From a virus (Duplodnaviria; Caudoviricetes): 64,000 nt of DNA. Under the pieces are notes generated by a model. The model was not told the origin of the DNA and searched no databases. It worked only from the letters and a program-made list of their open reading frames with translations. The translations under genes and the position numbers were made by a program. The stretch lies in the IMG/VR virus record IMGVR_UViG_3300021431_000084; one strand, 5' to 3'. Each line of letters begins with the position of its first letter. Positions within the stretch are counted from its first letter, which is position 1. Below are positions 7,232 through 64,000 of this stretch, in pieces.

Positions 7232-9478
7232 TTATTTTTCAAAATTAAGGGGATGTTTCTTTCGCATTAAAACTTCTTGTATTTTGCCTTTATTAAAGGC
7301 AGTTGTATAATCACCTGTAAGATAGCCTGTTACTCTTCTTAATCTCTGGATGTTGGTACTACCACACTTTGGACAAGCTTCGTCTATCTCGCCGCAATGA
7401 CCGCACTTCATACATGTATCACAAGGAACATTGATTGCAAAATAAGGAATATCATGATCCATAGCAAACTGTACTACTGCTTCAACCGCTGCCAAGTTAT
7501 TACGATCCTGATCACTAAACTCTACATAAGTGATACAACCAGCAGAGCTATAACCTGTTAATTGACTCTCAATCTCAATCTTGTCGAATGGACTCATTCT
7601 CTTCCAAACCGGAACATGCATTGAGTTGGTGAAGAAGTCCTTATCACTTACTTCTGGTATTACACCATACTGTTTCTTAAACTTCTGCATAGCAGTATAG
7701 CAAAGGTTTTCAGCAGGAGTATAATAAACACCAAAATTGAGTTTGTACTTTTCTTTATATTCTGCACAAAGTGTTTTGAAAGTATTTTCAATTCTCTTTG
7801 CTACTTCCATACCTTTTTCAGTTGTATGGTCAGTGTTTAAAAGAATTTGAAGAGTTTCAGCAAGTCCTAACTGACCAATAGCAAGAGTACCATGCTTGAG
7901 TGCGGAACGTATACCCTCTTCTGGATTGTAACCAAACATTGTACCATTCTCATACATAAATTTTGCTGAACTTGGGGACTGAGAACATATCCACTCAAAT
8001 CTTTCTATTAACATATCTCTTGCATCAGCTATTGCCAATTTAAGAATATCAATGAAAGTATCAATAATATCATCTTCTGTAAAATTATCTATCTTCTGTA
8101 CTTCTTCCATAGCTTCCATAGCAAGAGTAGGCATTATGATAGTTACTGGGCAGATATTACCACGACCATCTTTCATCTGTTTGTTCTGGCCGGGAAGTGC
8201 GTTGATATCTGCACCATTTGCGGTTCTACATCCCATTGTTGAGAAGTATGTAGTTGGATCGTTTGGATCGTAACCAGCGTTACCGCTCCAATCTACATTA
8301 GCATAGTTAGGATAAAGTCTCTTTGCAGTTGACTTAAGTGCTAACTGGAATAAATCGTAGTTGGGGTCACCTTCTTTTCTATTTACACCCTTCATACATT
8401 GGAAAATACCGCAAGGGAAGATAGAAGTTTTATGTAACTTTCCCAAACCTTCAAGAGATACTTCAAGTAAAGCTTTGATTACCATTCTACCTTCTGGGAG
8501 AGTACAAGTACCATAATTAATAGAGGTGAATGGGAGCTGATTGCCTGAACGAGATTGAAGTGTATTCAAGTTGTGATACATACCTTCAACGGCTTGGCGC
8601 ACTTCTCTTTCTGTCATATCTATTGCATATTGATATGCCTGTGGATAATTTTCTTTAAGACCGGGATAATCAAATCCAATTTCTTCATCAGATTTAAGTA
8701 AGTCCTCTAACGTTGCATCTGGACGAGCAACATATTTACAACCATCTTTTAAGTGCTTTTTAAAACTCTTTCTTACATAAGGAACCATAGTCCAGTCTAA
8801 GTGAGTTGCGGAAACACCTCCGAATTGCTGCAAGGATTGAATTTGGAATATTACAGCAACTAACTGGAAAGCTGTATTAACACTATTTGCTGGGCGCACA
8901 TCTGTCTGTCGGGTATTAAAACCTTCAGCCAATAACTTATCAAATGGAATTGAGAGACAATTGTGCATACCAACTGCGTAACTGTCCAAATCGTGAATAT
9001 AAATTCTATTGTTTAAATGGTTTTCTTTAGCCATTTTAGATACGATATAATCAAGGGCATATTTTTTAGTCATAACACTTGAAGCTTCACCAATTCTTCC
9101 GCCGAATGAATGCTCGTCAACATTCGCATTTTGATTCTGAACATTACGTGCTTCAAGTTTTTCACCAATAGCATCAAAGAAGGTAGATTGTGTTTCTCTT
9201 GCAACTTCTTTCTTATAACGGTATCTAATGTAAGCTCTTGCTACATCTGGTCTTTCTGAAACCATTAATTCAAGTTCAACCCAGTCTTGAATAGCTTCAA
9301 CTCCAACCGGAGTTTTACTCATTCGTATTCTTTTTTCAATATCGGAAGCAATTTCTTTTGCAGTATCTTCTTCATAAAGTTGTCCATCAACTTCTATCAT
9401 AGCACTATTTACTGCGTCAATTATCTTTTGTCTATCAAAGGAAACTTCTTCACCATTTCTTTTTATAATTTTCAACAT
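7232..9478 (-). CDS. nrdD: Anaerobic (class III) ribonucleoside-triphosphate reductase
   Basis: N-terminal ATP cone, 'MGCRT', 'TPAENL', 'FTNSMH', CxxC..CxxC, glycyl-radical loop 'RRVTGYL'. Confidence 0.97.
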   Translation of the reverse strand: MLKIIKRNGEEVSFDRQKIIDAVNSAMIEVDGQLYEEDTAKEIASDIEKRIRMSKTPVGVEAIQDWVELELMVSERPDVARAYIRYRYKKEVARETQSTFFDAIGEKLEARNVQNQNANVDEHSFGGRIGEASSVMTKKYALDYIVSKMAKENHLNNRIYIHDLDSYAVGMHNCLSIPFDKLLAEGFNTRQTDVRPANSVNTAFQLVAVIFQIQSLQQFGGVSATHLDWTMVPYVRKSFKKHLKDGCKYVARPDATLEDLLKSDEEIGFDYPGLKENYPQAYQYAIDMTEREVRQAVEGMYHNLNTLQSRSGNQLPFTSINYGTCTLPEGRMVIKALLEVSLEGLGKLHKTSIFPCGIFQCMKGVNRKEGDPNYDLFQLALKSTAKRLYPNYANVDWSGNAGYDPNDPTTYFSTMGCRTANGADINALPGQNKQMKDGRGNICPVTIIMPTLAMEAMEEVQKIDNFTEDDIIDTFIDILKLAIADARDMLIERFEWICSQSPSSAKFMYENGTMFGYNPEEGIRSALKHGTLAIGQLGLAETLQILLNTDHTTEKGMEVAKRIENTFKTLCAEYKEKYKLNFGVYYTPAENLCYTAMQKFKKQYGVIPEVSDKDFFTNSMHVPVWKRMSPFDKIEIESQLTGYSSAGCITYVEFSDQDRNNLAAVEAVVQFAMDHDIPYFAINVPCDTCMKCGHCGEIDEACPKCGSTNIQRLRRVTGYLTGDYTTAFNKGKIQEVLMRKKHPLNFEK

Positions 9479-48250: not shown

Positions 48251-48631
48251 TTACCAATACCTTGTTCCACAAAATTCACAATAATTGTCTTTTCCTATTC
48301 TGCCTCCGCAACAAGAACATATCGCGGGAGTGAGTCGAGCCTGCGGCTTACTCTTACCCTCAAGGAAGTACATAGCATCATTGTTCTTTTCTTCATATGA
48401 AAGTGCATCATAATCATCTTGTGTCTTTTCTGTTATATGAAACATTGTATTATCAAAACCAAAAGCCTTAGCAAAAGAAGAACTAAATTGTTCTGCTGTT
48501 ACTGTAAAAGTAGTCGAAAAACCATCTACCGCTTTTACGAAATCATCTAAGACTCCCTCTAATTCAAAACTCGTGCGGCGCGGCGTTCCCGGGATCTTCA
48601 TGACCAAGGACCGCACTCTCCCTTTAGACAT
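48251..48631 (-). CDS. Hypothetical protein, C-terminal Zn ribbon
   Basis: 'CSCCGG...CEFCG'. Confidence 0.55.
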   Translation of the reverse strand: MSKGRVRSLVMKIPGTPRRTSFELEGVLDDFVKAVDGFSTTFTVTAEQFSSSFAKAFGFDNTMFHITEKTQDDYDALSYEEKNNDAMYFLEGKSKPQARLTPAICSCCGGRIGKDNYCEFCGTRYW

Positions 48632-49075
48632 TATCTTTGTCTCCTCTCGCGAATCGTTCTTCTGTATACTCGACACTACAAATATAGCAAAGCCACGATT
48701 TACAAGGCTTATCAGTATAAGGGCATATACCCTTAAAATACTCTTGACTTCCTATATTATTCATTATCTCTCTCCTTTTGTACATTGGCAAAATATACAC
48801 ATCCATTAACATCACCTATTTTATCTCGGTATGGATGTGTACATCCGTGAAATGACATAAAAACGCACGGTACACATTTGTCATAATTTGCATAAGCACC
48901 ATAATTTTTATTGCTCATTCTTCACCTCTCAGCCAGCCAATACTAATTGACCATTTAATAAGATTAATAAACAGGTATGTTTCATCAAAGGAATGTGTTA
49001 TACAAGAACCAATACTCCACATCTTTTCCCATTGTTTATCAATTTTAATTCTGAATTTACATTTACTTTCGGGCA

Positions 49076-49625: not shown

Positions 49626-49824
49626 TATTTATTTCCTCTCGATTTATATGTTTTACAATCAATGGACAGTTTAATGAAGTAAATTCTAATTTACAACTAA
49701 ATTTTTCATCTATATATTGTTGATTTTCAAAATATGATTTAACACATAAAGGACATTTTAAGCAGTTACCTGTTTCATAATCATCTGGAACATTGAGAAT
49801 CGCTATTAAGGTTGCTTGTTTCAT
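49615..49824 (-). CDS. Small Cys-rich hypothetical protein
   Basis: 'CLKCPLC..CPL'. Confidence 0.55.
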   Translation of the reverse strand: MKQATLIAILNVPDDYETGNCLKCPLCVKSYFENQQYIDEKFSCKLEFTSLNCPLIVKHINREEINNDK

Positions 49825-50200
49825 TCTTCTTCTCCTCTCTCATGTCAGCCCCGCAATTAGGACAGAAATCAGACAATAATTCGACCTCATTAACAAGAAC
49901 TTGTGCTGAATCGTGGCAACAGGAACATTCGTGTCTATTAGGAGAGGCAATATAATTTCCTGCTTCTTCCCACGTTATCCACTCACCGTGAAGTCTTTCT
50001 TCCATTGGCCCCTTTTGGTGTCTTATATCATCAAACCATAAAACAGTTACACATTCATTCATTGGAATAATTTTCTGAATATGAAACATAGCTTGTTCCA
50101 TATTCTTAAATGCACCGTCTTTTGTTGCTAATGCAACTTCTTGGTCAAGATTTATATCAGGATTATTAAGTAATTCAATTATCAATTCTCTTCCTGTCAT
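49781..50200 (-). CDS. Zn-ribbon hypothetical protein
   Basis: 'GEW..CSCC..FCPNCGADM'. Confidence 0.65.
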   Translation of the reverse strand: MTGRELIIELLNNPDINLDQEVALATKDGAFKNMEQAMFHIQKIIPMNECVTVLWFDDIRHQKGPMEERLHGEWITWEEAGNYIASPNRHECSCCHDSAQVLVNEVELLSDFCPNCGADMREEKKNETSNLNSDSQCSR

Positions 50201-50450: not shown

Positions 50451-50861
50451 TCACCTTATCAATAGATAAATAATAAGAATAAATTCTATTATATTGACAA
50501 CTATACTACATATTCTTAAAATTTTATCCCCATAATAATAAACTTTATTTTGAATTTCAAGTTTATATATAGTTTTTCTCTTATTCATCCGCTTATCTCT
50601 TTGTCTCATATCTGCTCCACAAGTCGGACAAAAGTCTAATATTTTATTGGGGTCTAAATATTGTCCACAATTAGAACATATCAAGTATTTAGTACCTTTA
50701 CATTTCATCCAATGTCCCGTTGGTTTTGCGTGTCTTTCTTCATAAAGTTTACCATTACGAATTGCTCGGTCAATTGCTTCTCTGTCTTCCGAACTTGTTT
50801 CAACTCCATTATCAAATAATCGAGTAAATGCATTTTCATCAAGATCAATTACAATTTTCAT
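50451..50861 (-). CDS. Zn-ribbon protein with C-terminal TM
   Basis: 'GHW..CSNC..FCPTCGADM', hydrophobic C-terminus. Confidence 0.6.
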   Translation of the reverse strand: MKIVIDLDENAFTRLFDNGVETSSEDREAIDRAIRNGKLYEERHAKPTGHWMKCKGTKYLICSNCGQYLDPNKILDFCPTCGADMRQRDKRMNKRKTIYKLEIQNKVYYYGDKILRICSIVVNIIEFILIIYLLIR

Positions 50862-53759: not shown

Positions 53760-54086
53760 TTAATTACATACTTTTAGTACAATATTTATATCTACATCTG
53801 GTTTTTGTTGAGGTGCAATAAATGTAAGCAATCCATCACAACTAAAGTTATATGTAATATAACCAAACTGCTCCATTATTTGTTTATCTTTTTCCTCATC
53901 TCCCGTAGAAACCAATCCGACTACCTGATAATCTACATTCTCCTCGGGGATATCCATTATGATACAGTACGACGATGGAACACAGTCCGCCCAATTATCC
54001 TTATTAAGCGTAAAGTAAATCTCATTTGTATCATTAGGAAATAATATAAGTTCTTTAGGTATATCAATTCTTTTAATATCTGACAT
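53760..54086 (-). CDS. Tail-fibre-associated small protein
   Basis: C-terminal 'DGLLTFIA..KPDVDINIVLK'; last gene of the fibre cluster. Confidence 0.55.
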   Translation of the reverse strand: MSDIKRIDIPKELILFPNDTNEIYFTLNKDNWADCVPSSYCIIMDIPEENVDYQVVGLVSTGDEEKDKQIMEQFGYITYNFSCDGLLTFIAPQQKPDVDINIVLKVCN

Positions 54087-54097
54087 ATTAACTCTCC

Positions 54098-54853
54098 TTA
54101 TGATAAGTTCTTTATTCCTACTACTGAAGTTATAATATAGTTAGATGCAGAAGTATTTGGAGTAATATCTCCACGAGTAATACCACTTGTAGTTGCTGTT
54201 AATGAAATAGAATAACAGTTACTAAGCACCCATCCATAATTCCTACCCATAACGCCAGCAGCACGTGCGCCACCACCAACAGGCAACATACAACTTCCTT
54301 GTGGCTGTTCGGGGTAATCAGCAGTAGTTTTTAAAGTCACATAAACCCATTTGTATGCAGATAAATTAACCGATATATTGCCGGTACTACTACCACTCCA
54401 TGCAGTCACACGAGAAGCCGTAGGAACGTTTACAGTAACTTTAGAAAAACCTAATTTTCCACTCGATGGTGTATATGTACCATTTGAAGTAATAGATTTC
54501 GTTTCAGTAGCCTGATTAACGCTAACTGTTACTTTAGAGAAACCTATTTTACCTGAAGAAGGTGTGTATGTACCATTTGAGGTAATAGATTTCGTTTCAG
54601 TAGCTTGGTTGACATTAACAGTAACTTTAGAAAATCCAACTTTACCACTCGATGGGGTATAAGTACCATTTGCAGTTATTGATTTTTCTTCAGTAGAAGC
54701 ATTTACATTAACAGTTACTTTAGAATATCCGTCTGCATCGTCGCTCGTGGCATTATATGTACCATTAGCCGTTATTGTTTTCTCTTTTAAAGTGGCATCT
54801 GGGCCACTTCCGAATATAAAATACTCGTGTCCATTATGTACTATTTTTGGCAT
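54098..54853 (-). CDS. Fibre protein with four 31-aa repeats
   Basis: N-terminal 'MPKIVHNGHEY'; repeats 'KSIT.NGTYTPSSGK.GFSKVTVNV'. Confidence 0.7.
   Translation of the reverse strand: MPKIVHNGHEYFIFGSGPDATLKEKTITANGTYNATSDDADGYSKVTVNVNASTEEKSITANGTYTPSSGKVGFSKVTVNVNQATETKSITSNGTYTPSSGKIGFSKVTVSVNQATETKSITSNGTYTPSSGKLGFSKVTVNVPTASRVTAWSGSSTGNISVNLSAYKWVYVTLKTTADYPEQPQGSCMLPVGGGARAAGVMGRNYGWVLSNCYSISLTATTSGITRGDITPNTSASNYIITSVVGIKNLS
54427..54790. repeat. Coding tandem repeat, about 93-bp period, 4 copies
   Basis: GATTTCGTTTCAGTAGC at 54495 and 54588. Confidence 0.85.
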
Positions 54854-54864
54854 ATGTTACTCCT

Positions 54865-55530
54865 TTAATGTATTCGTTTCCAAGCATACTGCCCTATCGG
54901 ATAGCCAAGTTCTATAACAGTACAGCAGGGTGCTTCTGTATTACCACCCTCTTGAAAATTTATTGGGCCAGAACCAACATGAACTCTAAATTTATAAGTA
55001 TGCTGACCTGCGGAAACACCTTTATCTAAATAAACAATACCACCATCGCCGTTATATGAATTTCCGCCACTGCATTGTACCGTTCGAACGGCTATTTGTG
55101 AGCCATCTCGAAATATGTATAGTGAAAACCAAACCGCCGTAGCTGATAGAGGGTTAGCATCTGCATCAAAAGCTAACAACACAGGATTTCCATTAGTTGT
55201 TACCACAATATTTTTATCCGTATCAACCCCGCTTGCAACATTGGTTAACCCCGTAATTCTTTCACATGCATTTGCAATATTAACCGCCGTCCAAGTTGTC
55301 CCACTTAACCACGTACTCGGATTTGCGCTTGATGAACTTGTAAGAATAGACCCAACAGGATAGATAATATCAACAATAGATGGTGCATCTGTAATCACAT
55401 AAAGAGTACCATTATTTTTCTGTTCAGATGGTAAAGCATCATATTCTGCTTGGGTTATTTCAATTGTTATAGTATTACCGGTGCCACCACTACCCGCGTA
55501 TTCTATACCATTAAGCATTATCTTAGGCAT
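54865..55530 (-). CDS. Fibre module protein
   Basis: 'MPKIMLNGIEY' + 'ITQAEYDAL..KNNGTLYVITD' + 'IYPVGSI' gp10/gp12-like segment. Confidence 0.7.
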   Translation of the reverse strand: MPKIMLNGIEYAGSGGTGNTITIEITQAEYDALPSEQKNNGTLYVITDAPSIVDIIYPVGSILTSSSSANPSTWLSGTTWTAVNIANACERITGLTNVASGVDTDKNIVVTTNGNPVLLAFDADANPLSATAVWFSLYIFRDGSQIAVRTVQCSGGNSYNGDGGIVYLDKGVSAGQHTYKFRVHVGSGPINFQEGGNTEAPCCTVIELGYPIGQYAWKRIH

Positions 55531-55544
55531 ATTTTATCCCCCCA

Positions 55545-56363
55545 TTAAACGTAAGTCATTGTATTTGCTATATTAAGAGTACCGGTTGCTGTACTATAAT
55601 TATAAATTAAAACAGTTCCATCAGTTTTAATGTTAAACCTTATAGCCACATCATCCGCAGAAGGAACAAAAAGAGTCTCATAAACATCCATCTGTGGTCT
55701 AAAATTAGTGGGGAGGGTAAAGTCAAGTGTTGTATACGCTTTAGCAGTTAAATTTTTTGGATCAACAATACGCACAATCTTAATTCCATTTATTTCAGTA
55801 AAATAAAATTTTCCATAATTAGAGGTTCTTTGATCAAATACCTCTACCCATCCGTATTGAGTATAATCAACCATTCTCCAAGACGTACCATCATAAGTAA
55901 ATGATATAACTTGATTATTATTCCACGATTCATATGGATTTGTGCTAGGACTTACAGTGCCATATCTATAAATAAGTTTTGCCCCTGTACCACTAACATT
56001 GAGTGTTGGAGAAGTAGCACTATTTGAATTGATAAATAATACTCTAATAGATACGCCTGCAATAAGATTAGTTGAAGAAAAACCCAATATATTTACTTCC
56101 TTCTCCGCCACATCGGCATTTGTATTACAAACACCATAAAAAGCAGTATCAACAGAAGAAGAACTGTCTGTAATACAGTACATAGTACCATTGTTTTTCT
56201 CGTCTTCACTCAAAGCATCATAATCGGCTTGAGTGATTTCTACTATCTTTCCTTCGATTTCATCTATTTTATCAGCTACAGTTTTCGTAGGACTATATTG
56301 TACTTGATTGGCAGTAGTAGCTGTACCGCCATATTCTATTCCATTTCTTATTATTTTTGACAT
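55545..56363 (-). CDS. Fibre module protein
   Basis: 'MSKIIRNGIEY' + 'ITQADYDAL..KNNGTMYCITD' + 'PTLNVSGTGAK..YDGTSW' + 'LPTNFRP' tip domain. Confidence 0.7.
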   Translation of the reverse strand: MSKIIRNGIEYGGTATTANQVQYSPTKTVADKIDEIEGKIVEITQADYDALSEDEKNNGTMYCITDSSSSVDTAFYGVCNTNADVAEKEVNILGFSSTNLIAGVSIRVLFINSNSATSPTLNVSGTGAKLIYRYGTVSPSTNPYESWNNNQVISFTYDGTSWRMVDYTQYGWVEVFDQRTSNYGKFYFTEINGIKIVRIVDPKNLTAKAYTTLDFTLPTNFRPQMDVYETLFVPSADDVAIRFNIKTDGTVLIYNYSTATGTLNIANTMTYV

Positions 56364-56440
56364 ATGATGGTCTCCTTAAATATCTGAAAGTTTCAAAACC
56401 ATTGACGGAACATATAGAATCAAGTTCTTAGTTATTCTCC

Positions 56441-56956
56441 TTATTCCGAAATCCACCAACCCTGCCCCCATAGCCTCATATTTGCGGTCGGAGAATATAC
56501 TTGTATAAGACCATCGGTTGTGATTCGGCATTCTGCATTATTGAAGCCTCCTGCTTCATCTACTAAATAGAACTCCATTATTCCCTTTGGTTTATGACCT
56601 TCAGGAACTGTTGCCTGAGTCACCCACCCTGAACCAGCATTTACCGTAGCGAAATAGAGTCTCAAAGAGTGAATTTTTCCGTAAATCGTACATTGATTGT
56701 CCCTCAGTGCCGCACTTCCTGTGGTCGTTACAAAATTATTAACAAACTGCGTCGTTAGCATTTCCGCCACACTCGTATTATCACTCGTACTCATAGCTAT
56801 TTCAGTAGCTAAAGGAGCACCTGCTTGTGCATCAGTAATATAGTAGTCAACTCCATCAGTCAATTTACTTGAGGGTAAAGCATCATATTGAGCTTGTGTA
56901 AGTTCTACTGAATTATCTCCAAAGTATTTTATTCCATTTCTGATTATATATCCCAT
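56441..56956 (-). CDS. Fibre module protein
   Basis: 'MGYIIRNGIKY' + 'LTQAQYDAL..DGVDYYITD' + 'VPEGHKP' tip domain. Confidence 0.7.
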   Translation of the reverse strand: MGYIIRNGIKYFGDNSVELTQAQYDALPSSKLTDGVDYYITDAQAGAPLATEIAMSTSDNTSVAEMLTTQFVNNFVTTTGSAALRDNQCTIYGKIHSLRLYFATVNAGSGWVTQATVPEGHKPKGIMEFYLVDEAGGFNNAECRITTDGLIQVYSPTANMRLWGQGWWISE

Positions 56957-56959
56957 AGA

Positions 56960-58009
56960 TTATGCATCCTTTATATATAAAACATCTAAACGTAGTGTTG
57001 TGGTAAGACTTCCCGTGGTATTGTTCCTATAGTAAACTCTTGCAGTAGATGAATTAGCCAAATAGAAGTCAGAATATGCCAAACCTGATGTACCACTACC
57101 TGTAATACCGACAATCCCGATTGCAGTATATCCAGCTTTTGTAATTGTAATATCCACATAGCTATTTGTCGCTGCAGCTATTACAAATTGAGCAGAAGCT
57201 ACTCGCGTTACACTGAATAAATTTCTAACGATAGCAGAAACAGTATCGGAACTTGCTTTGTCTGCAACTTCATCAATAGCACCCTGAACATTAGTAGCAC
57301 TTAAACTGCTATCAGAATTATCATACATTACTTGAGAAGCGGTAGCTACATTTGGATTATTAGTATCTTTGATATAATAAGTAACATCTGATTCTAAAGT
57401 TCCGGCTTGCTCCCAAGTATCATATTGAGCTTGTGTACACTCTATATAAGTAGTCTTGTCATCTAATGTATCGGATAATGATGTACTTCCATTAAATGTA
57501 AGATCTCCTGCAATAGTTTCATTACCTTGCCAGTCAAGTGTACGAGCATTGGAACGAGTATTAGCAGTACCGTTACCTATGATTTCTGCGTAAGTATTAT
57601 TATTGTCTGCAATATTATATCTACCACTCACATGTTGGGCAGACCCCGCTGCAATTGTATGGTTTCCTTCAGCATGAGAATAAACACCACTTGTGGTTGT
57701 ATAATTTCCTTCAGCATGTGAACTACTACCAGAAGCAGTAGTTTGTGACCCTTCTGCATGAGAATAATAACCAGAAGCAGTAGTTTGTGACCCTTCTGCA
57801 TGAGAATGATTACCAGAAGCAGTAGTATTATAACCTACAGCCACAGAATCAGCACCAATAGTAGTACTAGCTTTTCTATTTAAACTCAAACTACCACTAC
57901 CTGTTGGATTAACCTTATCCATCTTGTTAGATAAATCACTACGGGCTTTAAGGTCTTTAATATCATACTCATTACCATCAGGTGTTGTTATCTTACTAAT
58001 ATCAGCCAT
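56960..58009 (-). CDS. Fibre with short YadA-head-like (SHAEG) repeat array
   Basis: 4 SHAEG 14-aa repeats, 'SNARTLDWQGN', 'CTQAQYD..TYYIKD'. Confidence 0.75.
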   Translation of the reverse strand: MADISKITTPDGNEYDIKDLKARSDLSNKMDKVNPTGSGSLSLNRKASTTIGADSVAVGYNTTASGNHSHAEGSQTTASGYYSHAEGSQTTASGSSSHAEGNYTTTSGVYSHAEGNHTIAAGSAQHVSGRYNIADNNNTYAEIIGNGTANTRSNARTLDWQGNETIAGDLTFNGSTSLSDTLDDKTTYIECTQAQYDTWEQAGTLESDVTYYIKDTNNPNVATASQVMYDNSDSSLSATNVQGAIDEVADKASSDTVSAIVRNLFSVTRVASAQFVIAAATNSYVDITITKAGYTAIGIVGITGSGTSGLAYSDFYLANSSTARVYYRNNTTGSLTTTLRLDVLYIKDA

Positions 58010-58022
58010 ATTATCACCTCAT

Positions 58023-58574
58023 TTACGGAGTATATGACACAGTACCACTTGCAGGTGTGCCTGTGAATGTGGGGGCGGTTGCTTCATACTCCGCATCACC
58101 CGTTTTAGCTTGAACCGCCGTGGCAAGAGTAGGAACTGCACCAGCTGTAATAATAAGTCTCTCACCCTGTACGGTGTATGTCGGCATAGAGCCTGCATTT
58201 GTAACACCTGTAATAGGTGTCGTAGCACCTGCTGTCTTTACAGAAATACCTGGGGCGGACACATTACCTGTTGCTACTGTACTTACGGATACGCCGTCCT
58301 TATAAGCGAGTGCCCCAAGTGCCCCAAGGTCACCAAAAGCTGCCCAAGCCGTACCATCAAATATAAATTCACTATTACCATAAAGGGCAATGCCACCTGC
58401 TTCTGCTGTCACACTCTCCCCATTTATCGTAATGGGGTTAGTTGTTGAACCGTCGGAAAGAGGTGTTGTTGTTTTACCGAGGTACTTTGTAAAGCCCTCA
58501 AGATTGTCAACACGACTATCTCTTAAATCATATACGCTACCACTCGGCAATTCGATTTGACTTAAATTTGGCAT
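58023..58574 (-). CDS. Fibre/structural protein
   Basis: Thr/Ala/Gly-rich, 'LGALAYKD', 'PTFTGT'; N-terminus resembles that of 56960..58009. Confidence 0.65.
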   Translation of the reverse strand: MPNLSQIELPSGSVYDLRDSRVDNLEGFTKYLGKTTTPLSDGSTTNPITINGESVTAEAGGIALYGNSEFIFDGTAWAAFGDLGALGALAYKDGVSVSTVATGNVSAPGISVKTAGATTPITGVTNAGSMPTYTVQGERLIITAGAVPTLATAVQAKTGDAEYEATAPTFTGTPASGTVSYTP

Positions 58575-58587
58575 AATTAAATCTCCT

Positions 58588-59085
58588 TTACTTTGTTGTA
58601 AATATCAACCGTTTATCATTATTAGGATCTATATAACACCTAACTTTATCGTTCCAAAAATTTCTTTCTTCTTGAGTTATGTGAATGACAGTATTATTAA
58701 TGTGTTCAACAATCTCATCGTCAGTAAACGGTAAATCAATTAAATATGCTTTACCATCACCGATCTTAATAGCAGGCTTTCCATCTCTATAATCTGAATA
58801 AATATAAATAAACCCTGCTTTAGAAAGAGTTTTTGGTTTACTGTTCCATGTTGCTGTTGAAGCATACAATACTTTGCAATCTCCTCCTTCAACAACATAA
58901 ACAGTACCAAAAGATGCTTCTAATGGTAAATTTTCACCAAAGGAAATATCAAGAGTCTGATCAATACCATAATCAGCATCAATAACTTCATTTGTCTTTA
59001 AATCAACATTTACATTAGGTGGTGATGATCCTATTTTTGTATCTAAACTTGGATTAGAATTAAAATTAATTGGGAGTTCATTCAC
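58588..59085 (-). CDS. Tail-associated protein
   Basis: 'IKIGDG....DLPF', 'HINNTVIHITQEERNFWN'. Confidence 0.6.
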   Translation of the reverse strand: MNELPINFNSNPSLDTKIGSSPPNVNVDLKTNEVIDADYGIDQTLDISFGENLPLEASFGTVYVVEGGDCKVLYASTATWNSKPKTLSKAGFIYIYSDYRDGKPAIKIGDGKAYLIDLPFTDDEIVEHINNTVIHITQEERNFWNDKVRCYIDPNNDKRLIFTTK

Positions 59086-59398
59086 TTATAACGCCTCCCT
59101 TATAAACTTCTATAATAGATATAGACTTAGCTATACAAGCCAAAGCCGTTCCATCAGTCATTAAAAGACGAATTTGAAATAACGCACCACCTTCTTTTAG
59201 TCCTAAAGTATCATTTTGACTAAGAGTAACTTTTATGGTATGTGTGTTAGCATCAATATTAACATCTTCAATCTTTTTATCAACCACAACTCGCTTGTAT
59301 TGAGAAATATAAACCCAGATTTCGGCAACCTTGGTCAAGTCTATATCTGATTTTACATTTATTGTTATTGTTGGGGTTGTCCCTCGAATTATTTCCAT
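59078..59398 (-). CDS. BppU-N-like baseplate/adaptor protein
   Basis: 'IRGTTPT....LSQNDTL...QIR' Ig-like pattern. Confidence 0.55.
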   Translation of the reverse strand: MEIIRGTTPTITINVKSDIDLTKVAEIWVYISQYKRVVVDKKIEDVNIDANTHTIKVTLSQNDTLGLKEGGALFQIRLLMTDGTALACIAKSISIIEVYKGGVISE

Positions 59399-59423
59399 AG
59401 ATTACCTCTTTTCTGAAAAATGA

Positions 59424-60095
59424 TTAAGTGAATTTATAACCTGTTAATACATACAATGATCCAGAGCCATAATGAGCAAAATTTATACCATCATTACTTG
59501 CCCACATTGGACCATTGGTATTATTATAACCATGGCCTACAAAACTGGTTGTTGATATTAATTCATTTACGTTGGGTTTAACTAAAAATGGACCTACTTC
59601 ATCTACATTACCACTACCAGAAATGACAGATATAAAATCATAATTGTTAATATTTTCTTCTAATACTATATTACTATTGGTACTACCGGAATGTAATATT
59701 GTTTTTGTTATTGTTTTATTCGTGCAATTAAGCCCTTCTATTTTTGAGATGAATGTATCACGATACCATCTGCGAGTAAGTGTGGTTCCATCTGTCGGAG
59801 TTATACAACAGCCTCTAGAACTATTGGATGGACAATGTGGGAAAAATCCCATATATATATTTAAATTATTACAAAGTTCATCAAATTCTTCTGGCGAAAA
59901 TATATATTCCTGATAGTTATAATATACATCACTATTGTTATATAAAGTAACTTTTAGAAAATCATAATTATGATAATCATCAGATAATGCATAAGAAGAA
60001 TCACTATAACCACTACCAGTAAATAATGTTGTTATAGAGAATATAGGCCCAGTATCTCCACCACCAGACTCTTTAACACTTCTAAAATATGCCAT
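59424..60095 (-). CDS. Putative receptor-binding/fibre tip protein
   Basis: 'MAYFR..GGG' N-terminus, two internal 'T.L..G.....L.(D/E)...NYDF' repeats. Confidence 0.55.
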   Translation of the reverse strand: MAYFRSVKESGGGDTGPIFSITTLFTGSGYSDSSYALSDDYHNYDFLKVTLYNNSDVYYNYQEYIFSPEEFDELCNNLNIYMGFFPHCPSNSSRGCCITPTDGTTLTRRWYRDTFISKIEGLNCTNKTITKTILHSGSTNSNIVLEENINNYDFISVISGSGNVDEVGPFLVKPNVNELISTTSFVGHGYNNTNGPMWASNDGINFAHYGSGSLYVLTGYKFT

Positions 60096-60109
60096 GTTTA
60101 GTTACCTCC

Positions 60110-60913
60110 TTAATTAAGCCATCTAAACTTAAAGGAATTGATAGTACCTCTTTGGAATCTGCTACTATCATCTTTTGTACCACCAACTGTTAATGTGTTA
60201 GAGTCGTCAAGTGTATTATCCCAAGCTACAGAATATAAAATCTCATCTTCCATATTGTAGAAAATTAAATTTTGTCCATTTTTAAGAATTCGTATTTGTA
60301 ATGTTGTTAAATTAGCTAATGCAGATATTGTATTAGCGTTAAACATCCATCTTACAGAAGAACTTGTACTTTCATGAATAACACTTAATAATTGTCGATT
60401 AGCATATTCTAAAGACCAACGGTAAACATTGTCAGTATCGTTTATTGTAGTATCTAATAACATTTCCCAATCACGAGTTCTATTAGCTTCACTTCTTAAT
60501 TTAATTCCAGTATCTACATAAGAGGAAGCATCATAATCACTTAATTCATAATCATAAATAATTGGGTCATTATCATTGAAAAATACTAATTTTACTCTCA
60601 TATCAGAAGATTGAGCAGGATATGTTAGTACAGCATTACCACTATTTAATCTATTAGATGTATAATTTACTCCATCAATAGAAGTATATACATCAACAGT
60701 TGAATCTGGCGTAATATCTGCATTATAAATAGTTACTGATGTTTCTCCAGCGGGTAACTTGCCAAGAGCAGTTTTTCTACCTGAAGAGTTTCTATTTTCC
60801 CACTTATCTTCAGTTTCGTTATATGTTACAACTTGTCCATCTGATAAATTTGAAAAATTAACATCAGATAATTTGCTTAATTTTTCATTTTTTTCGGTTT
60901 TTGTCCAAGCCAT
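60110..60913 (-). CDS. Fibre protein with lectin-like C-terminus
   Basis: 'LSDVNFSNLSDGQVVTYN....KWEN' fibre motif, 'YVDTGIKL..FQRGTINSFK'. Confidence 0.6.
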   Translation of the reverse strand: MAWTKTEKNEKLSKLSDVNFSNLSDGQVVTYNETEDKWENRNSSGRKTALGKLPAGETSVTIYNADITPDSTVDVYTSIDGVNYTSNRLNSGNAVLTYPAQSSDMRVKLVFFNDNDPIIYDYELSDYDASSYVDTGIKLRSEANRTRDWEMLLDTTINDTDNVYRWSLEYANRQLLSVIHESTSSSVRWMFNANTISALANLTTLQIRILKNGQNLIFYNMEDEILYSVAWDNTLDDSNTLTVGGTKDDSSRFQRGTINSFKFRWLN

Positions 60914-60929
60914 TTATTTTCTCCTTTCT

Positions 60930-60993
60930 TGCGGCGAGCTGGTCCTGAGAACTTTTTAATTAGTTCTTGAGTATCTCAGGACCACCGGCCGCA
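60930..60993. repeat. Intergenic GC-rich inverted repeat
   Basis: TGCGGC..TGGTCCTGAGA / TCTCAGGACCA..GCCGCA. Confidence 0.8.
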
Positions 60994-61048
60994 CGTTCTT
61001 TAATAAAAAGACTTATGTAATTTCAAGATAATTATTAATTAACATGAT

Positions 61049-61345
61049 TTACGCGGAAGGTAGTCCTGTTTCTGAGCTTCCTCCACAAGCTGTGATTCCT
61101 GCATCATAGTCTATCATCGAAGTTCCAAGAGCGTTCTCCTGTTCTTTATTGAGAAGATAACATCCATCGAACCACTGCGAAAGCGGCATTATCTTTCCCT
61201 GCTCCATCATGGAATGGAAATTACCTGCACCGATTGCATTCTGCACCCACGGTGTAATGTTGTTCTTCTTCTTGCCCGAAGAGAAGTCAATATGCTTGAA
61301 CTTATCGTAAGAAAATTGAAGTTCTGTATATCCCTGTAAAGCCAT
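61049..61345 (-). pseudogene. Truncated homologue of the N-terminus of 43478..45112
   Basis: 'LQGYTEL..NNIT..MPLSQWFDG..ITACGG' aligns by eye with 'IKGHTKI..NMIT..LPIRQLFGG..LVAHAG'; ends at 98 aa. Confidence 0.5.
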
Positions 61346-61350
61346 TCTGT

Positions 61351-61842
61351 TTATCCTCCTGTTGTAAATCCTGTCAGATTGAAAATTTCATAGTTAGCAT
61401 CGTAAAGAGTTTCTTTTGTCGCTTCGGTCTCTCCCCCAATCGCCATCGAGCCTATGAAATTCAAATAGCAATTCGTGTGCGAGCCTGTCCATCCATAGAA
61501 TATTTCTATCGTATCGCCTGCATTGAAATCAATAGCCGTGAAATCATCAAGAGTAACTGTCGAGCTTGTCGGAAGAGCCTTATTGTAAACCTCCGTTCCG
61601 TTCTTCTCTACCGATAGATATGCGTGATTGCTTCCGCAGTTCGTGATAGCGGTCGAAGCCGTATCCATCATAAAAGAACCACTCGAAGTGCAATCTATGT
61701 GTAAAAAAGGCTTGGCAGGATTTAGGTCATACAAGCCTGTCGCTCCATAAGAAAAATGAAGAGCAACCGAAGAAGCTCCGCCGCCGCTCCCCAGATGCAC
61801 ATTCCCGAAAATCGTCTGTCCGTTTATTATTGCTTTTGCCAT
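61351..61842 (-). CDS. Fibre tip/module protein
   Basis: ATG 61842 after AAGGAGG; N-terminal 'MAKAIINGQTIFG' followed by a Gly linker. Confidence 0.6.
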   Translation of the reverse strand: MAKAIINGQTIFGNVHLGSGGGASSVALHFSYGATGLYDLNPAKPFLHIDCTSSGSFMMDTASTAITNCGSNHAYLSVEKNGTEVYNKALPTSSTVTLDDFTAIDFNAGDTIEIFYGWTGSHTNCYLNFIGSMAIGGETEATKETLYDANYEIFNLTGFTTGG

Positions 61843-61852
61843 TTTAGCCTCC

Positions 61853-64000
61853 TTATGCAAGAGTTATAATTTGTTGTTCATACATAATTTGAATTGAGCA
61901 AGGGGTATTATTTAAGTTAGATGGCGCATTAACATTTGCCTGAACAAATAAACCCATCCCGTTTGAACTCACGCTGTATGAATTAGATATCGTTGAAAAC
62001 TTCGCATTATCAATAAGATAAGAACCATCTATCATTCTGATTGTCATCTTTACATCATTTAGAGATATATTCCTTATTCCCGTTTCATTAAAGGGTTTGT
62101 TAAGTGGAATATAAAATCTCAAACTTTTAGCACTTGAAGTAATGTAGCCTGCCGAGACAATTCCAGCTATTAACACATTGTCTCCAACATGATACATAGA
62201 ATTAGATAGTAATTCCGCTATCTGCCCATTTGCATCAGCAATCCCTTCATCTATTGTTCTTGTATCTGTACTCGATACTTGTATATCTTCTCCTGTCGTC
62301 TCTGCATTGGTCTGAATGTAAATAGTGCCGTTATTCTTCTCGGCTGTTGTTAGTGCTTCGTACTGTGCTGTCGTCAATTCTTTGACGGGATGATACTCTT
62401 CATCGAGGCAATACATTTTCGCATTATCGGTTATCTTATAAATCGAACCATTCATCTTCTCAACCGATGTGAGAAGGTCATATTCAGCTTGTGTTTTTTG
62501 GATTACTATTTTACTAAGTGCTTGTGTTACTGACTGATTACCATTGATTGTCAAATCGCCAGCGAGTACCTCATTACCTTGCCAGTCAAGTGTACGAGCG
62601 TTGGAAAGATTCTTACCATCAATACCATTACCGACTATTTCTACATATGTACCCTTTTCAGTAGCAGGATTAGTAGATTCGTCTAATATATTACATGTAC
62701 CAAATACATGCTGAGCATAGTGAGTGGCAGTTGTATTGTACCCTTCAGCATGAGATAAATCACCACTTGCGGTTGTATAATTTCCTTCAGCATGTGAATT
62801 ACTACCAGAAGCAGTTGTACTTTGTCCTTCAGCATGAGAACTAATACCAGTTGCATGCGTACCATAACCTTCTGCGTGAGCATAATTTTTAGTAGCTGTG
62901 GTAGCTGCACCCTCTGCATGAGAATCAGTCCCGGAGGCAGTTGTATTAGATCCTTCAGCATGAGAAGATTCACCAGAAGCAGTGGTATAAATGCCTTCAG
63001 CATGAGAATTAACCTGAAAGGCTTTGGTATAATATCCTTCTGCATGGGCTCTTTGATAAGTAGCCTGTGAATAATAACCTTCTGAATGAGAATAATCTCC
63101 AGAAGCAGTGGTACCAACACCTTCTGCATGAGAACAAACACCAGAAGCAGTAGTATTATAACCTTCAGCATGAGCATTTTCCGCGTTAGCTTGAGAACTA
63201 CTACCTTCTGCATGAGAGTAGTTGCCTAAAGCAATGGTATTAGCCCCTTCCGCATGAGAACCTTGACCAGAAGCTTTGGTATAATATCCTTCTGCATGGG
63301 AGCTTTGACCAGAGGCAGTAGAATTTTGACCTTCAGAGTGTGCAGCAGTTTGTGTTGTTGTAGTGTAACTTCCTTCTGCATGACTATATTGTCCTTTTGC
63401 AGTTGAATTTCCTTCAGAGTGAGAATATGTCCCTTCTGCTTTACTATAATTTTCAGCGTGAGAGGATCCTCCTAATGCTTGAGAACTACTACCTTCTGCA
63501 TGAGAGTAGTCACCCACTGCCACAGTACGATAGCCTTCTGCGTGAGAACCCTGGCCAGGAGCATTAGTTTCACAACCTTCTGCATGAGCATAAGGTTTAG
63601 AAGCAGTTCCCTTACCCTCTGCATGGGAATAGTCACCAGCAGCTACTGAACTATTACCTTCAGCATGAGAAGAATCACCATAAGCAGTGGTACCACTACC
63701 TTCTGCGTGAGAATTGGCCCCAATAGCTTTAGTGCTATAACCTTCTGCATGTGCATAAGAACTAGAAGCTGTGGTGCTATTACCTTCTGCATGAGAACCA
63801 GTAGCAGAAGCTGTAGTACCGCCACCTTCTGCATGAGAGTAATAGCCAGAAGCCTCATTACCTTCACCCTCAGCTACAGAATTAAGACCAATAGCTGTAC
63901 CGGCTTTTCTATTCAAGCTCAAACTACCACTACCTGTAGGATTAATTTTATCCATCTTATTATTAACATTAGTAAAAATATCAGACAAAGAAACTTCCTG
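61853..64000 (-). CDS. Long fibre/adhesin with YadA-head-like SHAEG repeats (5' end probably beyond the window)
   Basis: About 27 (S/A)H(A/S)EG 13-14-aa repeats, 'SNARTLDWQGN', two 'T.A.Y..L...K.NG..Y' motifs; frame open to the window edge. Confidence 0.8.
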   Translation of the reverse strand, partial: QEVSLSDIFTNVNNKMDKINPTGSGSLSLNRKAGTAIGLNSVAEGEGNEASGYYSHAEGGGTTASATGSHAEGNSTTASSSYAHAEGYSTKAIGANSHAEGSGTTAYGDSSHAEGNSSVAAGDYSHAEGKGTASKPYAHAEGCETNAPGQGSHAEGYRTVAVGDYSHAEGSSSQALGGSSHAENYSKAEGTYSHSEGNSTAKGQYSHAEGSYTTTTQTAAHSEGQNSTASGQSSHAEGYYTKASGQGSHAEGANTIALGNYSHAEGSSSQANAENAHAEGYNTTASGVCSHAEGVGTTASGDYSHSEGYYSQATYQRAHAEGYYTKAFQVNSHAEGIYTTASGESSHAEGSNTTASGTDSHAEGAATTATKNYAHAEGYGTHATGISSHAEGQSTTASGSNSHAEGNYTTASGDLSHAEGYNTTATHYAQHVFGTCNILDESTNPATEKGTYVEIVGNGIDGKNLSNARTLDWQGNEVLAGDLTINGNQSVTQALSKIVIQKTQAEYDLLTSVEKMNGSIYKITDNAKMYCLDEEYHPVKELTTAQYEALTTAEKNNGTIYIQTNAETTGEDIQVSSTDTRTIDEGIADANGQIAELLSNSMYHVGDNVLIAGIVSAGYITSSAKSLRFYIPLNKPFNETGIRNISLNDVKMTIRMIDGSYLIDNAKFSTISNSYSVSSNGMGLFVQANVNAPSNLNNTPCSIQIMYEQQIITLA
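62720..63880. repeat. Coding tandem repeat, about 42-bp period
   Basis: Recurrent CCTTC(T/A)GCATGAGA every ~42 bp. Confidence 0.9.

What the first reader, a model, noticed from the sequence alone, without database searches (positions are those of the whole stretch)
54098..64000. Plug-and-socket daisy chain of fibre proteins: candidate modular, extensible receptor-binding system
Seen: two short motifs are distributed in a strict order. The 'socket' T(Q/T)A.Y(D/E).L....K.(N/D)G..Y.ITD occurs twice in 61853-64000 and once each in 56960-58009 (more divergent), 56441-56956, 55545-56363 and 54865-55530. The N-terminal 'plug' M..I..NG..(Y/F) begins 61351-61842 (MAKAIINGQTIF), 56441 (MGYIIRNGIKY), 55545 (MSKIIRNGIEY), 54865 (MPKIMLNGIEY) and 54098 (MPKIVHNGHEY). 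In transcription order every plug gene directly follows a socket gene: socket > plug+socket > plug+socket > plug+socket > plug only, and separately 2 sockets > plug only. Each member has a different C-terminal tip domain. Known: branched RBP complexes exist in which one RBP docks on another (KP32, G7C, CBA120), and I recall TQA.YDAL-type motifs in minor tail proteins. Inference: each protein's N-terminus docks into the previous protein's socket, building a chain or tree of at least five different receptor-binding heads that can be lengthened by gene insertion.
Basis: partly seen in the sequence, partly recalled or inferred. Interest (0 to 1): 0.82.

Follow-up and report, generated by a model that had tools for sequence, protein, structure and literature searches.

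The report
Multi-headed phage fibre gene array
A roughly 140 kb phage from a metagenome carries a row of tail-fibre genes whose products share a short N-terminal hairpin and a small known fibre domain. This most likely marks a branched receptor-binding apparatus with several heads, but the proposed plug-into-socket chain between the proteins is not shown.

Summary
Six "socket" motifs and four canonical N-terminal "plug" motifs lie exactly where stated and nowhere else in the fibre region. In the window, every plug gene follows a socket gene. The fifth plug (61351-61842) is weak.

- **Socket:** it is Pfam PF24243, an autonomous unit of about 28 residues. It is often repeated in tandem in phage fibres, and about half of the related loci have sockets but no plug gene.
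- **Plug:** it is a mobile 12-residue NG hairpin, usually followed by a Gly-rich linker. It is joined either to sockets or to unrelated modules.
- **Gene order:** in 17 independent arrays from other phages, plug genes follow socket-bearing fibre genes (12 arrays to 1). Plugs and sockets also share genomes (11 of 15 records against 0 of 10 controls). Most of the directionality comes from "large fibre first, small heads after".

My best reading is an anchor-and-branch system of receptor-binding proteins, like KP32, CBA120 or RaK2. The plug would be the conserved docking peptide, and its acceptor is unresolved. The socket is one candidate acceptor, and the serial daisy chain remains possible at about 20%.

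I rate it a new variant of a known kind, of moderate interest. This scan had not noted the motif before.

The parts
61853..64000 (-). C-terminal 715 residues of a 973-residue fibre; the start lies beyond the window (full length in L001:757-3678, protein P0019). It has YadA-head-like SHAEG repeats, then a 'double socket' (socket 62426-62509, bridging plug-like hairpin 62390-62425, socket 62306-62389), then a tip.
   Evidence: PF05658 at 52.9 bits; BpaC and Hep_Hag matches in the PDB; socket HMM 43-44 bits, twice; full length.
61351..61842 (-). 163-residue protein with a divergent, doubtful plug and no socket.
   Evidence: Plug HMM 3.6 bits against 29-35 for the canonical plugs; no family match.
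58023..58574 (-). 183-residue fibre-module protein with a 'type-2' N-terminal hairpin (I.LPSG..YDLRD) and no socket.
   Evidence: Homologues head the arrays in L007 and L059.
56960..58009 (-). 349-residue fibre: type-2 N-terminal hairpin, YadA-head-like repeats, one divergent socket (57365-57451), then a tip. It is the first gene of the main array.
   Evidence: PF05658 at 29.3 bits; socket HMM 21 bits.
56441..56956 (-). 171-residue head protein: plug 56921-56956, a 4-residue linker, socket 56831-56914, and its own tip.
   Evidence: Plug HMM 29.1 bits; socket HMM 48.7 bits.
55545..56363 (-). 272-residue head protein: plug 56328-56363, a 28-residue insert, socket 56166-56249, and its own tip.
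   Evidence: Plug HMM 35.3 bits; socket HMM 58.2 bits.
54865..55530 (-). 221-residue head protein: plug 55495-55530, Gly-rich linker, socket 55387-55470, then a head like the T4 gp10/gp11/gp12 C-terminal domain (starting at 55285-55377) with an inserted beta-sandwich.
   Evidence: PF24243 at 27.5 bits and PF21939 at 31.9 bits, both above cut-off. AF2 gives the socket pLDDT 88-91 and the plug about 48. VIA match to 2fkk_A: Z 7.0, rmsd 2.2, 50 aligned residues, 32% identity.
54098..54853 (-). 251-residue plug-only protein: plug 54818-54853, then 31-residue ITxNGTY...VTVNV repeats (93-nt repeats at 54426-54724), then a C-terminal domain. It is the last fibre gene.
   Evidence: Plug HMM 34.5 bits; tandem DNA repeats; homologues sit last in L004 and L007.
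53760..54086 (-). 108-residue protein of unknown function, conserved directly after the plug-only gene in the closest relatives.
   Evidence: Same position in L001, L002, L004 and L005; no family match.
58588..61345 (-). Five further genes of the tail or fibre module between the two arrays (98, 267, 223, 106 and 165 residues), with neither plug nor socket.
   Evidence: ORFs; weak PHROG tail hits for 58588-59085 and 60110-60913.

Best explanation
The region is the receptor-binding module of a large phage from a metagenome. It encodes two long fibres built of YadA-head-like repeats and at least four small head proteins with unrelated tips.

The four small proteins share a 12-residue N-terminal NG beta-hairpin, the 'plug' (consensus MGKI(I/M)xNG(I/V)xYGG), usually tethered by a flexible linker. 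I read the plug as a conserved docking peptide. It would attach these heads to a fibre scaffold encoded just upstream, giving a branched apparatus with several heads, as in the anchor-and-branch systems of KP32, G7C, CBA120 and RaK2.

The 'socket' is Pfam PF24243, an autonomous strand-helix-hairpin mini-domain of about 28 residues that serves as a repeatable neck or shaft unit of such fibres. Whether it is also the acceptor of the plug is open.

Shown here: the motifs, their modularity, the gene order, and their co-occurrence in genomes. Inferred: docking of the plug, branching, and the trimeric state.
For: **Fibre identity**
- YadA_head repeats, PF24243 and Gp10_C; trimeric-adhesin matches in the PDB; T4 gp10/gp11-like heads.

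**The plug is an independent N-terminal module**
- The same hairpin precedes sockets, a YDN..SGL..VQ.AID helix, a DGQVL..W module or unrelated domains in many clusters.
- In both AF2 monomer models the N-terminal plug has low confidence (pLDDT 39-49) next to a confident socket (88-91). It is therefore not predicted to pack on its own socket.

**The socket is an independent unit**
- 103 of 165 representative proteins carry two or more sockets, often in tandem with Gly linkers and no plug.
- PF24243 scores 63.9 bits on P0021.
- 19 of 36 loci have sockets without a type-1 plug gene.

**Order and association**
- A gene directly downstream of a socket gene carries a plug in 18 of 51 cases, against 21 of 452 elsewhere.
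- In 17 de-duplicated arrays the socket-to-plug direction exceeds the reverse 12 to 1, and the first gene is socket-only in 14 of 17.
- Sockets occur in 11 of 15 plug-bearing viral records against 0 of 10 control records.

**Precedent**
- N-terminal conserved peptides of 7 residues or more on secondary receptor-binding proteins dock on a branching domain of the primary one, and the secondary gene lies downstream (PMC6872550). This was validated experimentally (PMC13352976).
- Multi-branch versions are described for RaK2 and CBA120 (PMC10253068, PMC8825819).
Against: - No physical or structural evidence for any docking was obtained.
- No T4 gp10 domain-2/3-like branching domain was detected in the long fibres by Pfam or PHROGs. 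Their folds were not predicted.
- The co-occurrence of plug and socket may reflect shared phage lineage rather than function.
- The plugs and sockets of the different genes are so alike that it is unclear how ordered assembly would be specified.
- The host and the virion are unknown.
Confidence: 0.5

Rival explanations
1. Each plug docks into the socket of the protein encoded just before it, so 56960 > 56441 > 55545 > 54865 > 54098 form a serial chain or tree that can be lengthened by inserting genes.

A structural version of the idea: a socket plus the next protein's hairpin (with or without that protein's own socket) rebuilds in trans the socket-hairpin-socket domain that exists in cis in the 973-residue fibre.
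For: - The grammar 'socket-only, then (plug+socket) n times, then plug-only' is seen in the window and in L004, L007, L010/L011, L021, L049 and L059.
- Plugs equal sockets in number in the main array (4 and 4) and in most arrays.
- Natural fusions place a plug directly after a socket: P0003, P0022, P0041 and P0115; P0143 ends in a socket followed by a plug; the socket-hairpin-socket units of P0019, P0020 and P0024.
- In the P0003 model the internal plug, which follows a socket, has pLDDT 69-75, against 39 for the N-terminal one. This is confounded by end effects.
- The two records without an HMM socket still carry divergent socket-like motifs upstream of the plug gene: in L051:8742-9995 (6 bits) and in L062:7394-7561.
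Against: - Sockets abound without plug genes (19 of 36 loci) and as plug-free tandem repeats.
- The chain-specific order, plug+socket before plug-only, is only 5 to 3.
- L006, L016 and L019 have a plug+socket gene after a plug-only gene, and L030 has a plug gene before the socket gene.
- In several loci the plug gene lies one to six genes away from the socket gene (L020, L039, L052, L054, L057).
- The 4-residue linker of 56441-56956 leaves little freedom for three plugs of one trimer to reach around another trimer's neck. This point is inference.
- Near-identical plugs and sockets give no specificity for an ordered chain.
Confidence: 0.2
2. Plug and socket act only within their own protein. 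The hairpins of the three chains cap or nucleate the trimer next to its own socket neck. The genes are parallel, independently attached or alternative receptor-binding proteins that arose by duplication and tip swapping.
For: - Plug and socket are often only 3-4 residues apart, enough for a tight beta-meander (56441-56956, P0093, P0150).
- A whole plug+socket unit matches internally and in tandem in many proteins.
- Weak fold matches of the socket region to small trimerisation units: collagen XV domain 3n3f_B, Z 3.8, rmsd 3.6, 48 aligned residues.
Against: - Plug-only proteins are common and diverse, so the plug does not need a socket of its own.
- AF2 does not place the N-terminal plug confidently on its own socket.
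- Gly-rich linkers of 10-28 residues look like tethers rather than domain loops.
Confidence: 0.15
3. The motifs persist mainly as short conserved junctions at which recombination swaps tips between fibre genes, without any docking role.
For: Relatives are mosaics joined at these motifs:
- P0004 has the N-terminus of 55545-56363, the socket of 54865-55530 and a different tip.
- P0014 and P0015 have the plug of 54865-55530 with other sockets and tips.
- P0003 fuses two units.
Against: - The copies within the window are only 73-87% identical over about 30 nt, with many synonymous changes. That is poor substrate for homologous recombination, and the conservation lies at the protein level.
- The idea does not explain why the plug sits strictly at N-termini.
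Confidence: 0.08

Closest known systems
Anchor-and-branch receptor-binding systems of Klebsiella and E. coli podophages (KP32, K11, KP34, K1-5, G7C)
   Same: The primary receptor-binding protein is encoded first. Secondary ones lie downstream and carry a short conserved N-terminal docking peptide (7 residues or more), and each has a different receptor-binding head (PMC6872550; validated experimentally in PMC13352976).
   Different: There the acceptor is a branching domain like T4 gp10 domains 2/3. None was detected here. The peptide here is an NG hairpin of a different sequence, and up to four or five secondary genes stand in a row.
Multi-branched fibres of Ackermannviridae (CBA120 TSP1-4) and Alcyoneusvirus (RaK2, phiK64-1)
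   Same: Several receptor-binding proteins are assembled through conserved N-terminal modules. Some secondary proteins carry docking domains of their own, so branches can carry further branches. The number of docking domains is matched to the number of proteins (PMC8825819, PMC11414711, PMC10253068).
   Different: Those are large tailspikes with XD and D1/D2 domains. Here the proteins are small (171-272 residues), with a 12-residue hairpin and a 28-residue PF24243 unit. No homology between the modules was found.
T4 baseplate periphery gp10-gp11-gp12
   Same: A network of trimeric fibrous proteins. The head of 54865-55530 and of its homologues resembles the shared C-terminal domain of gp10/gp11 (PF21939 at 31.9 bits; 2fkk_A Z 7.0; 1el6_A Z 5.6, rmsd 1.7, 49 aligned residues).
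   Different: The similarity is confined to the head domain. The plug and socket have no counterpart in any solved structure by sequence.
Pfam PF24243 (Phage_tail_C, 'phage tail tip domain')
   Same: The socket is this family: 27.5 bits on 54865-55530 and 63.9 bits on P0021, against a cut-off of 23.7.
   Different: Pfam describes a 26-residue domain with no function stated. Its tandem repetition and its association with plug genes are my observations here.

Membership tests
Pfam PF24243 Phage_tail_C (the 'socket') | Match to the family HMM above the gathering score of 23.7 bits. | tested here: met
   54865-55530 scores 27.5 bits, and the relatives P0021, P0025 and P0020 score 63.9, 58.8 and 27.1 bits. 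The copies in 56441-56956 (19.9 bits) and 55545-56363 (16.2 bits) fall below the cut-off, but they align with the others and score 48-58 bits on my own socket HMM.
Anchor-and-branch RBP system (KP32, G7C or CBA120 type) | Secondary RBPs carry a short conserved N-terminal docking peptide and are encoded downstream of the primary RBP. | tested here: met
   Four genes share the 12-residue plug. They follow the fibre gene 56960-58009. The same order holds in 12 of 17 independent arrays.
Anchor-and-branch RBP system (KP32, G7C or CBA120 type) | The primary RBP carries a branching domain like T4 gp10 domains 2/3. | tested here: inconclusive
   No such match appeared in Pfam or PHROGs for the two long fibres. 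Their structures were not predicted, so a fold-level match is untested.
Anchor-and-branch RBP system (KP32, G7C or CBA120 type) | Physical binding of the docking peptide to the primary RBP. | not testable with these tools
   This needs pull-downs, virion proteomics or cryo-EM.
T4 gp10/gp11/gp12 C-terminal head domain (Pfam PF21939 Gp10_C) | HMM match above the cut-off of 27 bits, plus fold similarity. | tested here: met
   54865-55530 scores 31.9 bits over profile positions 1-31 only. VIA match to 2fkk_A: Z 7.0, rmsd 2.2, 50 aligned residues, 32% identity. The middle of the domain is replaced by a poorly modelled beta-sandwich.
YadA-head-like repeats (Pfam PF05658) | HMM match above 25 bits. 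| tested here: met
   61853-64000 scores 52.9 bits and 56960-58009 scores 29.3 bits. BpaC (7o23_A) matches at E 3e-16.

The most novel reading that the evidence does not exclude
The plug and the PF24243 socket are the two halves of a split docking domain. A socket of one fibre protein plus the N-terminal hairpin of the next rebuilds in trans the socket-hairpin-socket unit seen in cis in the 973-residue fibre. Heads would then be strung into an extensible chain or tree, started by socket-only fibres and ended by plug-only proteins. This would be a widespread assembly code, independent of gp10-type domains, for branched phage receptor-binding fibres.
Probability: 0.18. Interest if true: 0.8.

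Novelty: new variant of a known kind. Interest (0 to 1): 0.5.

Why it matters
Branched phage receptor-binding systems are known almost only from phages of enterobacteria, where they rely on gp10-like branching domains.

This array points to a different pair of modules, so far undescribed in the papers I could search. One is a 12-residue NG-hairpin peptide. The other is the PF24243 unit. The search with the combined plug+socket unit found 670 representative protein clusters.

If the hairpin is a docking peptide, it gives a simple rule for reading which genes of uncultured phages build one multi-headed fibre. It also gives a small handle for studying how such fibres are put together.

Tried and rejected
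**Complex prediction**
- I folded 54865-55530 residues 18-221 (three copies) with residues 1-30 of 54098-54853 (three copies). Result: no verdict, scores 0.13 and 0.15 against a mark of 0.32, and the controls were not run. This counts neither for nor against binding.

**Sequence searches for a solved structure holding the socket**
- Searches with 54865-55530, P0021 and a six-row socket profile found nothing relevant.

**Fold searches**
- Foldseek of the 54865-55530 model against the PDB gave nothing at E <= 0.001.
- VIA matches for the socket region of P0003 are only Z 2.4-3.8: N-terminal parts of several tailspikes and collagen XV/XVIII trimerisation domains. I treat these as leads only.

**Searches for relatives**
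- Megablast of the 10 kb against GenBank phages found no match.
- The search for related loci with the single protein found no relative.

**A 'plug without socket' counterexample**
- Record G001 (L051, 97% complete) and record G006 (L062, 100% complete) have no socket by my profile. PF24243 was also run on G001 and found none.
- On reading the proteins, both hold divergent socket-like motifs upstream of the plug gene. I withdrew this as a refutation.

**Other**
- The ESM Atlas look-up of 54098-54853 returned only unnamed viral clusters.
- NCBIfam gave nothing useful.
- Full-text searches for the motif and for PF24243 found no paper.


Full report
**What is there**

The finding lies at the end of the structural module of a phage contig. 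Protein look-up places the window on a 140.6 kb ENA metagenome contig. The rest of the window encodes a large replication set: DNA polymerase, topoisomerase II, NrdD, NAD ligase, RecJ and DnaB. No whole genome is held for the window, and no GenBank phage is close.

All the fibre genes are on the minus strand. In transcription order they are:
- a 973-residue fibre, cut by the window end (full length in L001);
- a 163-residue protein;
- five module genes without either motif;
- a 183-residue protein;
- a 349-residue fibre;
- proteins of 171, 272, 221 and 251 residues;
- a conserved 108-residue gene.

**Check of the observation**

A six-frame regex finds the strict socket and the strict plug only at the stated places in the 64 kb.
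- My socket HMM, built from 257 units, scores the six copies at 21-62 bits.
- A plug HMM scores the four canonical N-termini at 29-35 bits.
- The N-terminus of 61351-61842 reaches only 3.6 bits, so the 'two sockets then plug' pair is weak.
- The tips are unrelated by BLAST.
- The motif copies differ at many synonymous sites: 73-87% DNA identity over about 30 nt. They are held by selection on the protein.

**What the socket is**

It is Pfam PF24243 (Phage_tail_C): 27.5 bits on 54865-55530 and 63.9 bits on a relative with four tandem copies.
- A full HMMER scan of 1.8 billion representatives with the first 50 residues of 54865-55530 found 670 proteins, many with 2-7 matched stretches.
- Of 165 proteins inspected, 103 hold two or more sockets, often joined only by Gly-rich linkers and without any plug.
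- AF2 models it confidently even in a monomer, as strand, two short helices and a strand, with pLDDT 88-91.
- No solved structure holds it by sequence.
- In 54865-55530 it leads straight into a head like the C-terminal domain shared by T4 gp10 and gp11.

I conclude that the socket is an autonomous, repeatable neck or shaft unit.

**What the plug is**

Its consensus is MGKI(I/M)xNG(I/V)xYGG, predicted as a beta-hairpin with the NG at the turn.
- It is nearly always at the very N-terminus and is usually followed by a Gly-rich linker of 3-28 residues.
- It is joined to sockets in dozens of clusters, but also to quite different modules in plug-only proteins.
- Internal copies exist between sockets: P0003, P0022, P0041, P0115, and the hairpin between the two sockets of the 973-residue fibre. 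L010 has a plug-only protein starting MGKIMYLDEEY, which matches that internal hairpin.
- Other fibre proteins of this phage start with variant hairpins: I.LP(D/S)G..YD on the 349- and 183-residue proteins, and IIANSGKISYG on the 973-residue fibre.
- In both monomer models the N-terminal plug has low confidence (pLDDT 39-49) beside a confident socket, so it is not predicted to pack on its own socket. The internal plug of P0003 reaches 69-75, but end effects confound this comparison.

**Does the grammar hold elsewhere?**

I fetched 41 IMG/VR loci through the socket motif, 24 more through two degenerate plug DNA patterns, and three through close homologues.
- A gene directly downstream of a socket gene has a plug in 18 of 51 cases, against 21 of 452 otherwise.
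- After collapsing relatives into 17 arrays, socket-to-plug adjacency exceeds the reverse in 12 arrays, is lower in 1 and ties in 4 (sign test p = 0.003).
- The first gene is socket-only in 14 of 17 arrays and the last is plug-only in 12 of 17.
- Whole-record searches found sockets in 11 of 15 plug-bearing records, against 0 of 10 control records pulled by the same DNA pattern but lacking a real plug (Fisher p = 0.0005).
- The two complete records without an HMM socket turned out to carry divergent socket-like motifs upstream of the plug gene.

So the association is real.

**Why this falls short of the daisy chain**

- Most of the direction comes from 'large plug-less fibre first, small plug proteins after'. 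That is also what a simple branch model, or ordinary fibre gene order, predicts.
- The chain-specific prediction, plug+socket genes before plug-only genes, is 5 to 3 (p = 0.73).
- Arrays such as L006, L016 and L019 put a plug+socket gene after a plug-only gene, and L030 puts the plug gene first.
- In several phages one to six genes separate the socket and plug genes.
- Nineteen of 36 socket-ascertained loci have no type-1 plug gene in the fetched flanks.
- The co-occurrence may be a matter of lineage.
- The plugs and sockets of the different genes are nearly interchangeable in sequence, which gives no obvious way to order a chain.

**Comparison with the known**

Short conserved N-terminal peptides that dock secondary receptor-binding proteins onto a branching domain of the primary one are established for KP32-like, K1-5-like and G7C phages (PMC6872550). 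They have been shown by engineering to be necessary (PMC13352976).

CBA120 and RaK2 show multi-branch versions in which secondary proteins carry further docking domains (PMC8825819, PMC11414711, PMC10253068). The array here has the same logic and gene order but different parts: an NG hairpin in place of those peptides, and no detectable gp10 domain-2/3-like platform.

I therefore file it as working like an anchor-and-branch system, not as a member of that family. I treat the PF24243 socket as one candidate acceptor.

**Verdict**

| Question | Answer |
|---|---|
| Observation | Confirmed |
| Best explanation | Branched multi-head fibre with the plug as docking peptide and the acceptor unresolved, about 0.5 |
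| Serial plug-in-socket chain | About 0.2 |
| Purely intramolecular cap | About 0.15 |
| Recombination junctions only | Under 0.1 |
| Novelty | New variant of a known kind |
| Interest | Moderate (0.5) |

Noticed in passing
window 48254-48751 (-): Outside the fibre array, a small protein carries a clear socket-like motif (KTQDDYDAL...MYFLEG; 28.7 bits, E 3e-7 on my socket HMM) followed by a C-terminal CxxC...CxxC zinc ribbon. Neighbouring small genes (49781-50200, 50451-50861) carry similar zinc ribbons. What a fibre motif does in this context is unexplained.
   Followed up: partly
window 54426-54724 (-), inside 54098-54853: Three tandem 93-nt repeats (81% identity) encode 31-residue ITxNGTY...SKVTVNV units. 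Their first half resembles the plug hairpin itself.
   Followed up: partly
L062 (IMG/VR record of 179.8 kb with direct terminal repeats): Under table 11 the fibre region is broken into many short ORFs with long gaps. A socket-like 55-residue ORF (7394-7561) stands just before a plug ORF (7667-7936). This may be a recoded stop codon, in which case the plug there would be internal to one long fibre protein.
   Followed up: no
L053, L056, L057, L080, L039: A conserved 85-93-residue protein (start MWYK..S..P..ID..SSKKWV) sits between the socket-bearing fibre gene and the plug gene in several unrelated large phages. It could be an adaptor or chaperone.
   Followed up: no
window 58023-58574 and 56960-58009; L018, L037, L044, L046, L054: A second family of N-terminal hairpins (M..IS.I.LP(D/S)G..YDIKD) heads many fibre genes. 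A third (MSVN.Y.DG.L..IAG) appears in L051, L053 and L054. N-terminal (N/D/S)G hairpins seem to be a general feature of fibre proteins in these phages.
   Followed up: partly
window 61853-64000 and 57655-57864: The long fibres are built of 14-residue SHAEG-type repeats (42-nt period). These match the head repeats of bacterial trimeric autotransporter adhesins (BpaC, 7o23_A, E 3e-16).
   Followed up: partly
window 1-50000: The replication and nucleotide module of a large phage: a 1283-residue DNA polymerase, two topoisomerase II subunits, NrdD, NAD-dependent ligase, a RecJ-like exonuclease and a DnaB-like helicase.
   Followed up: partly
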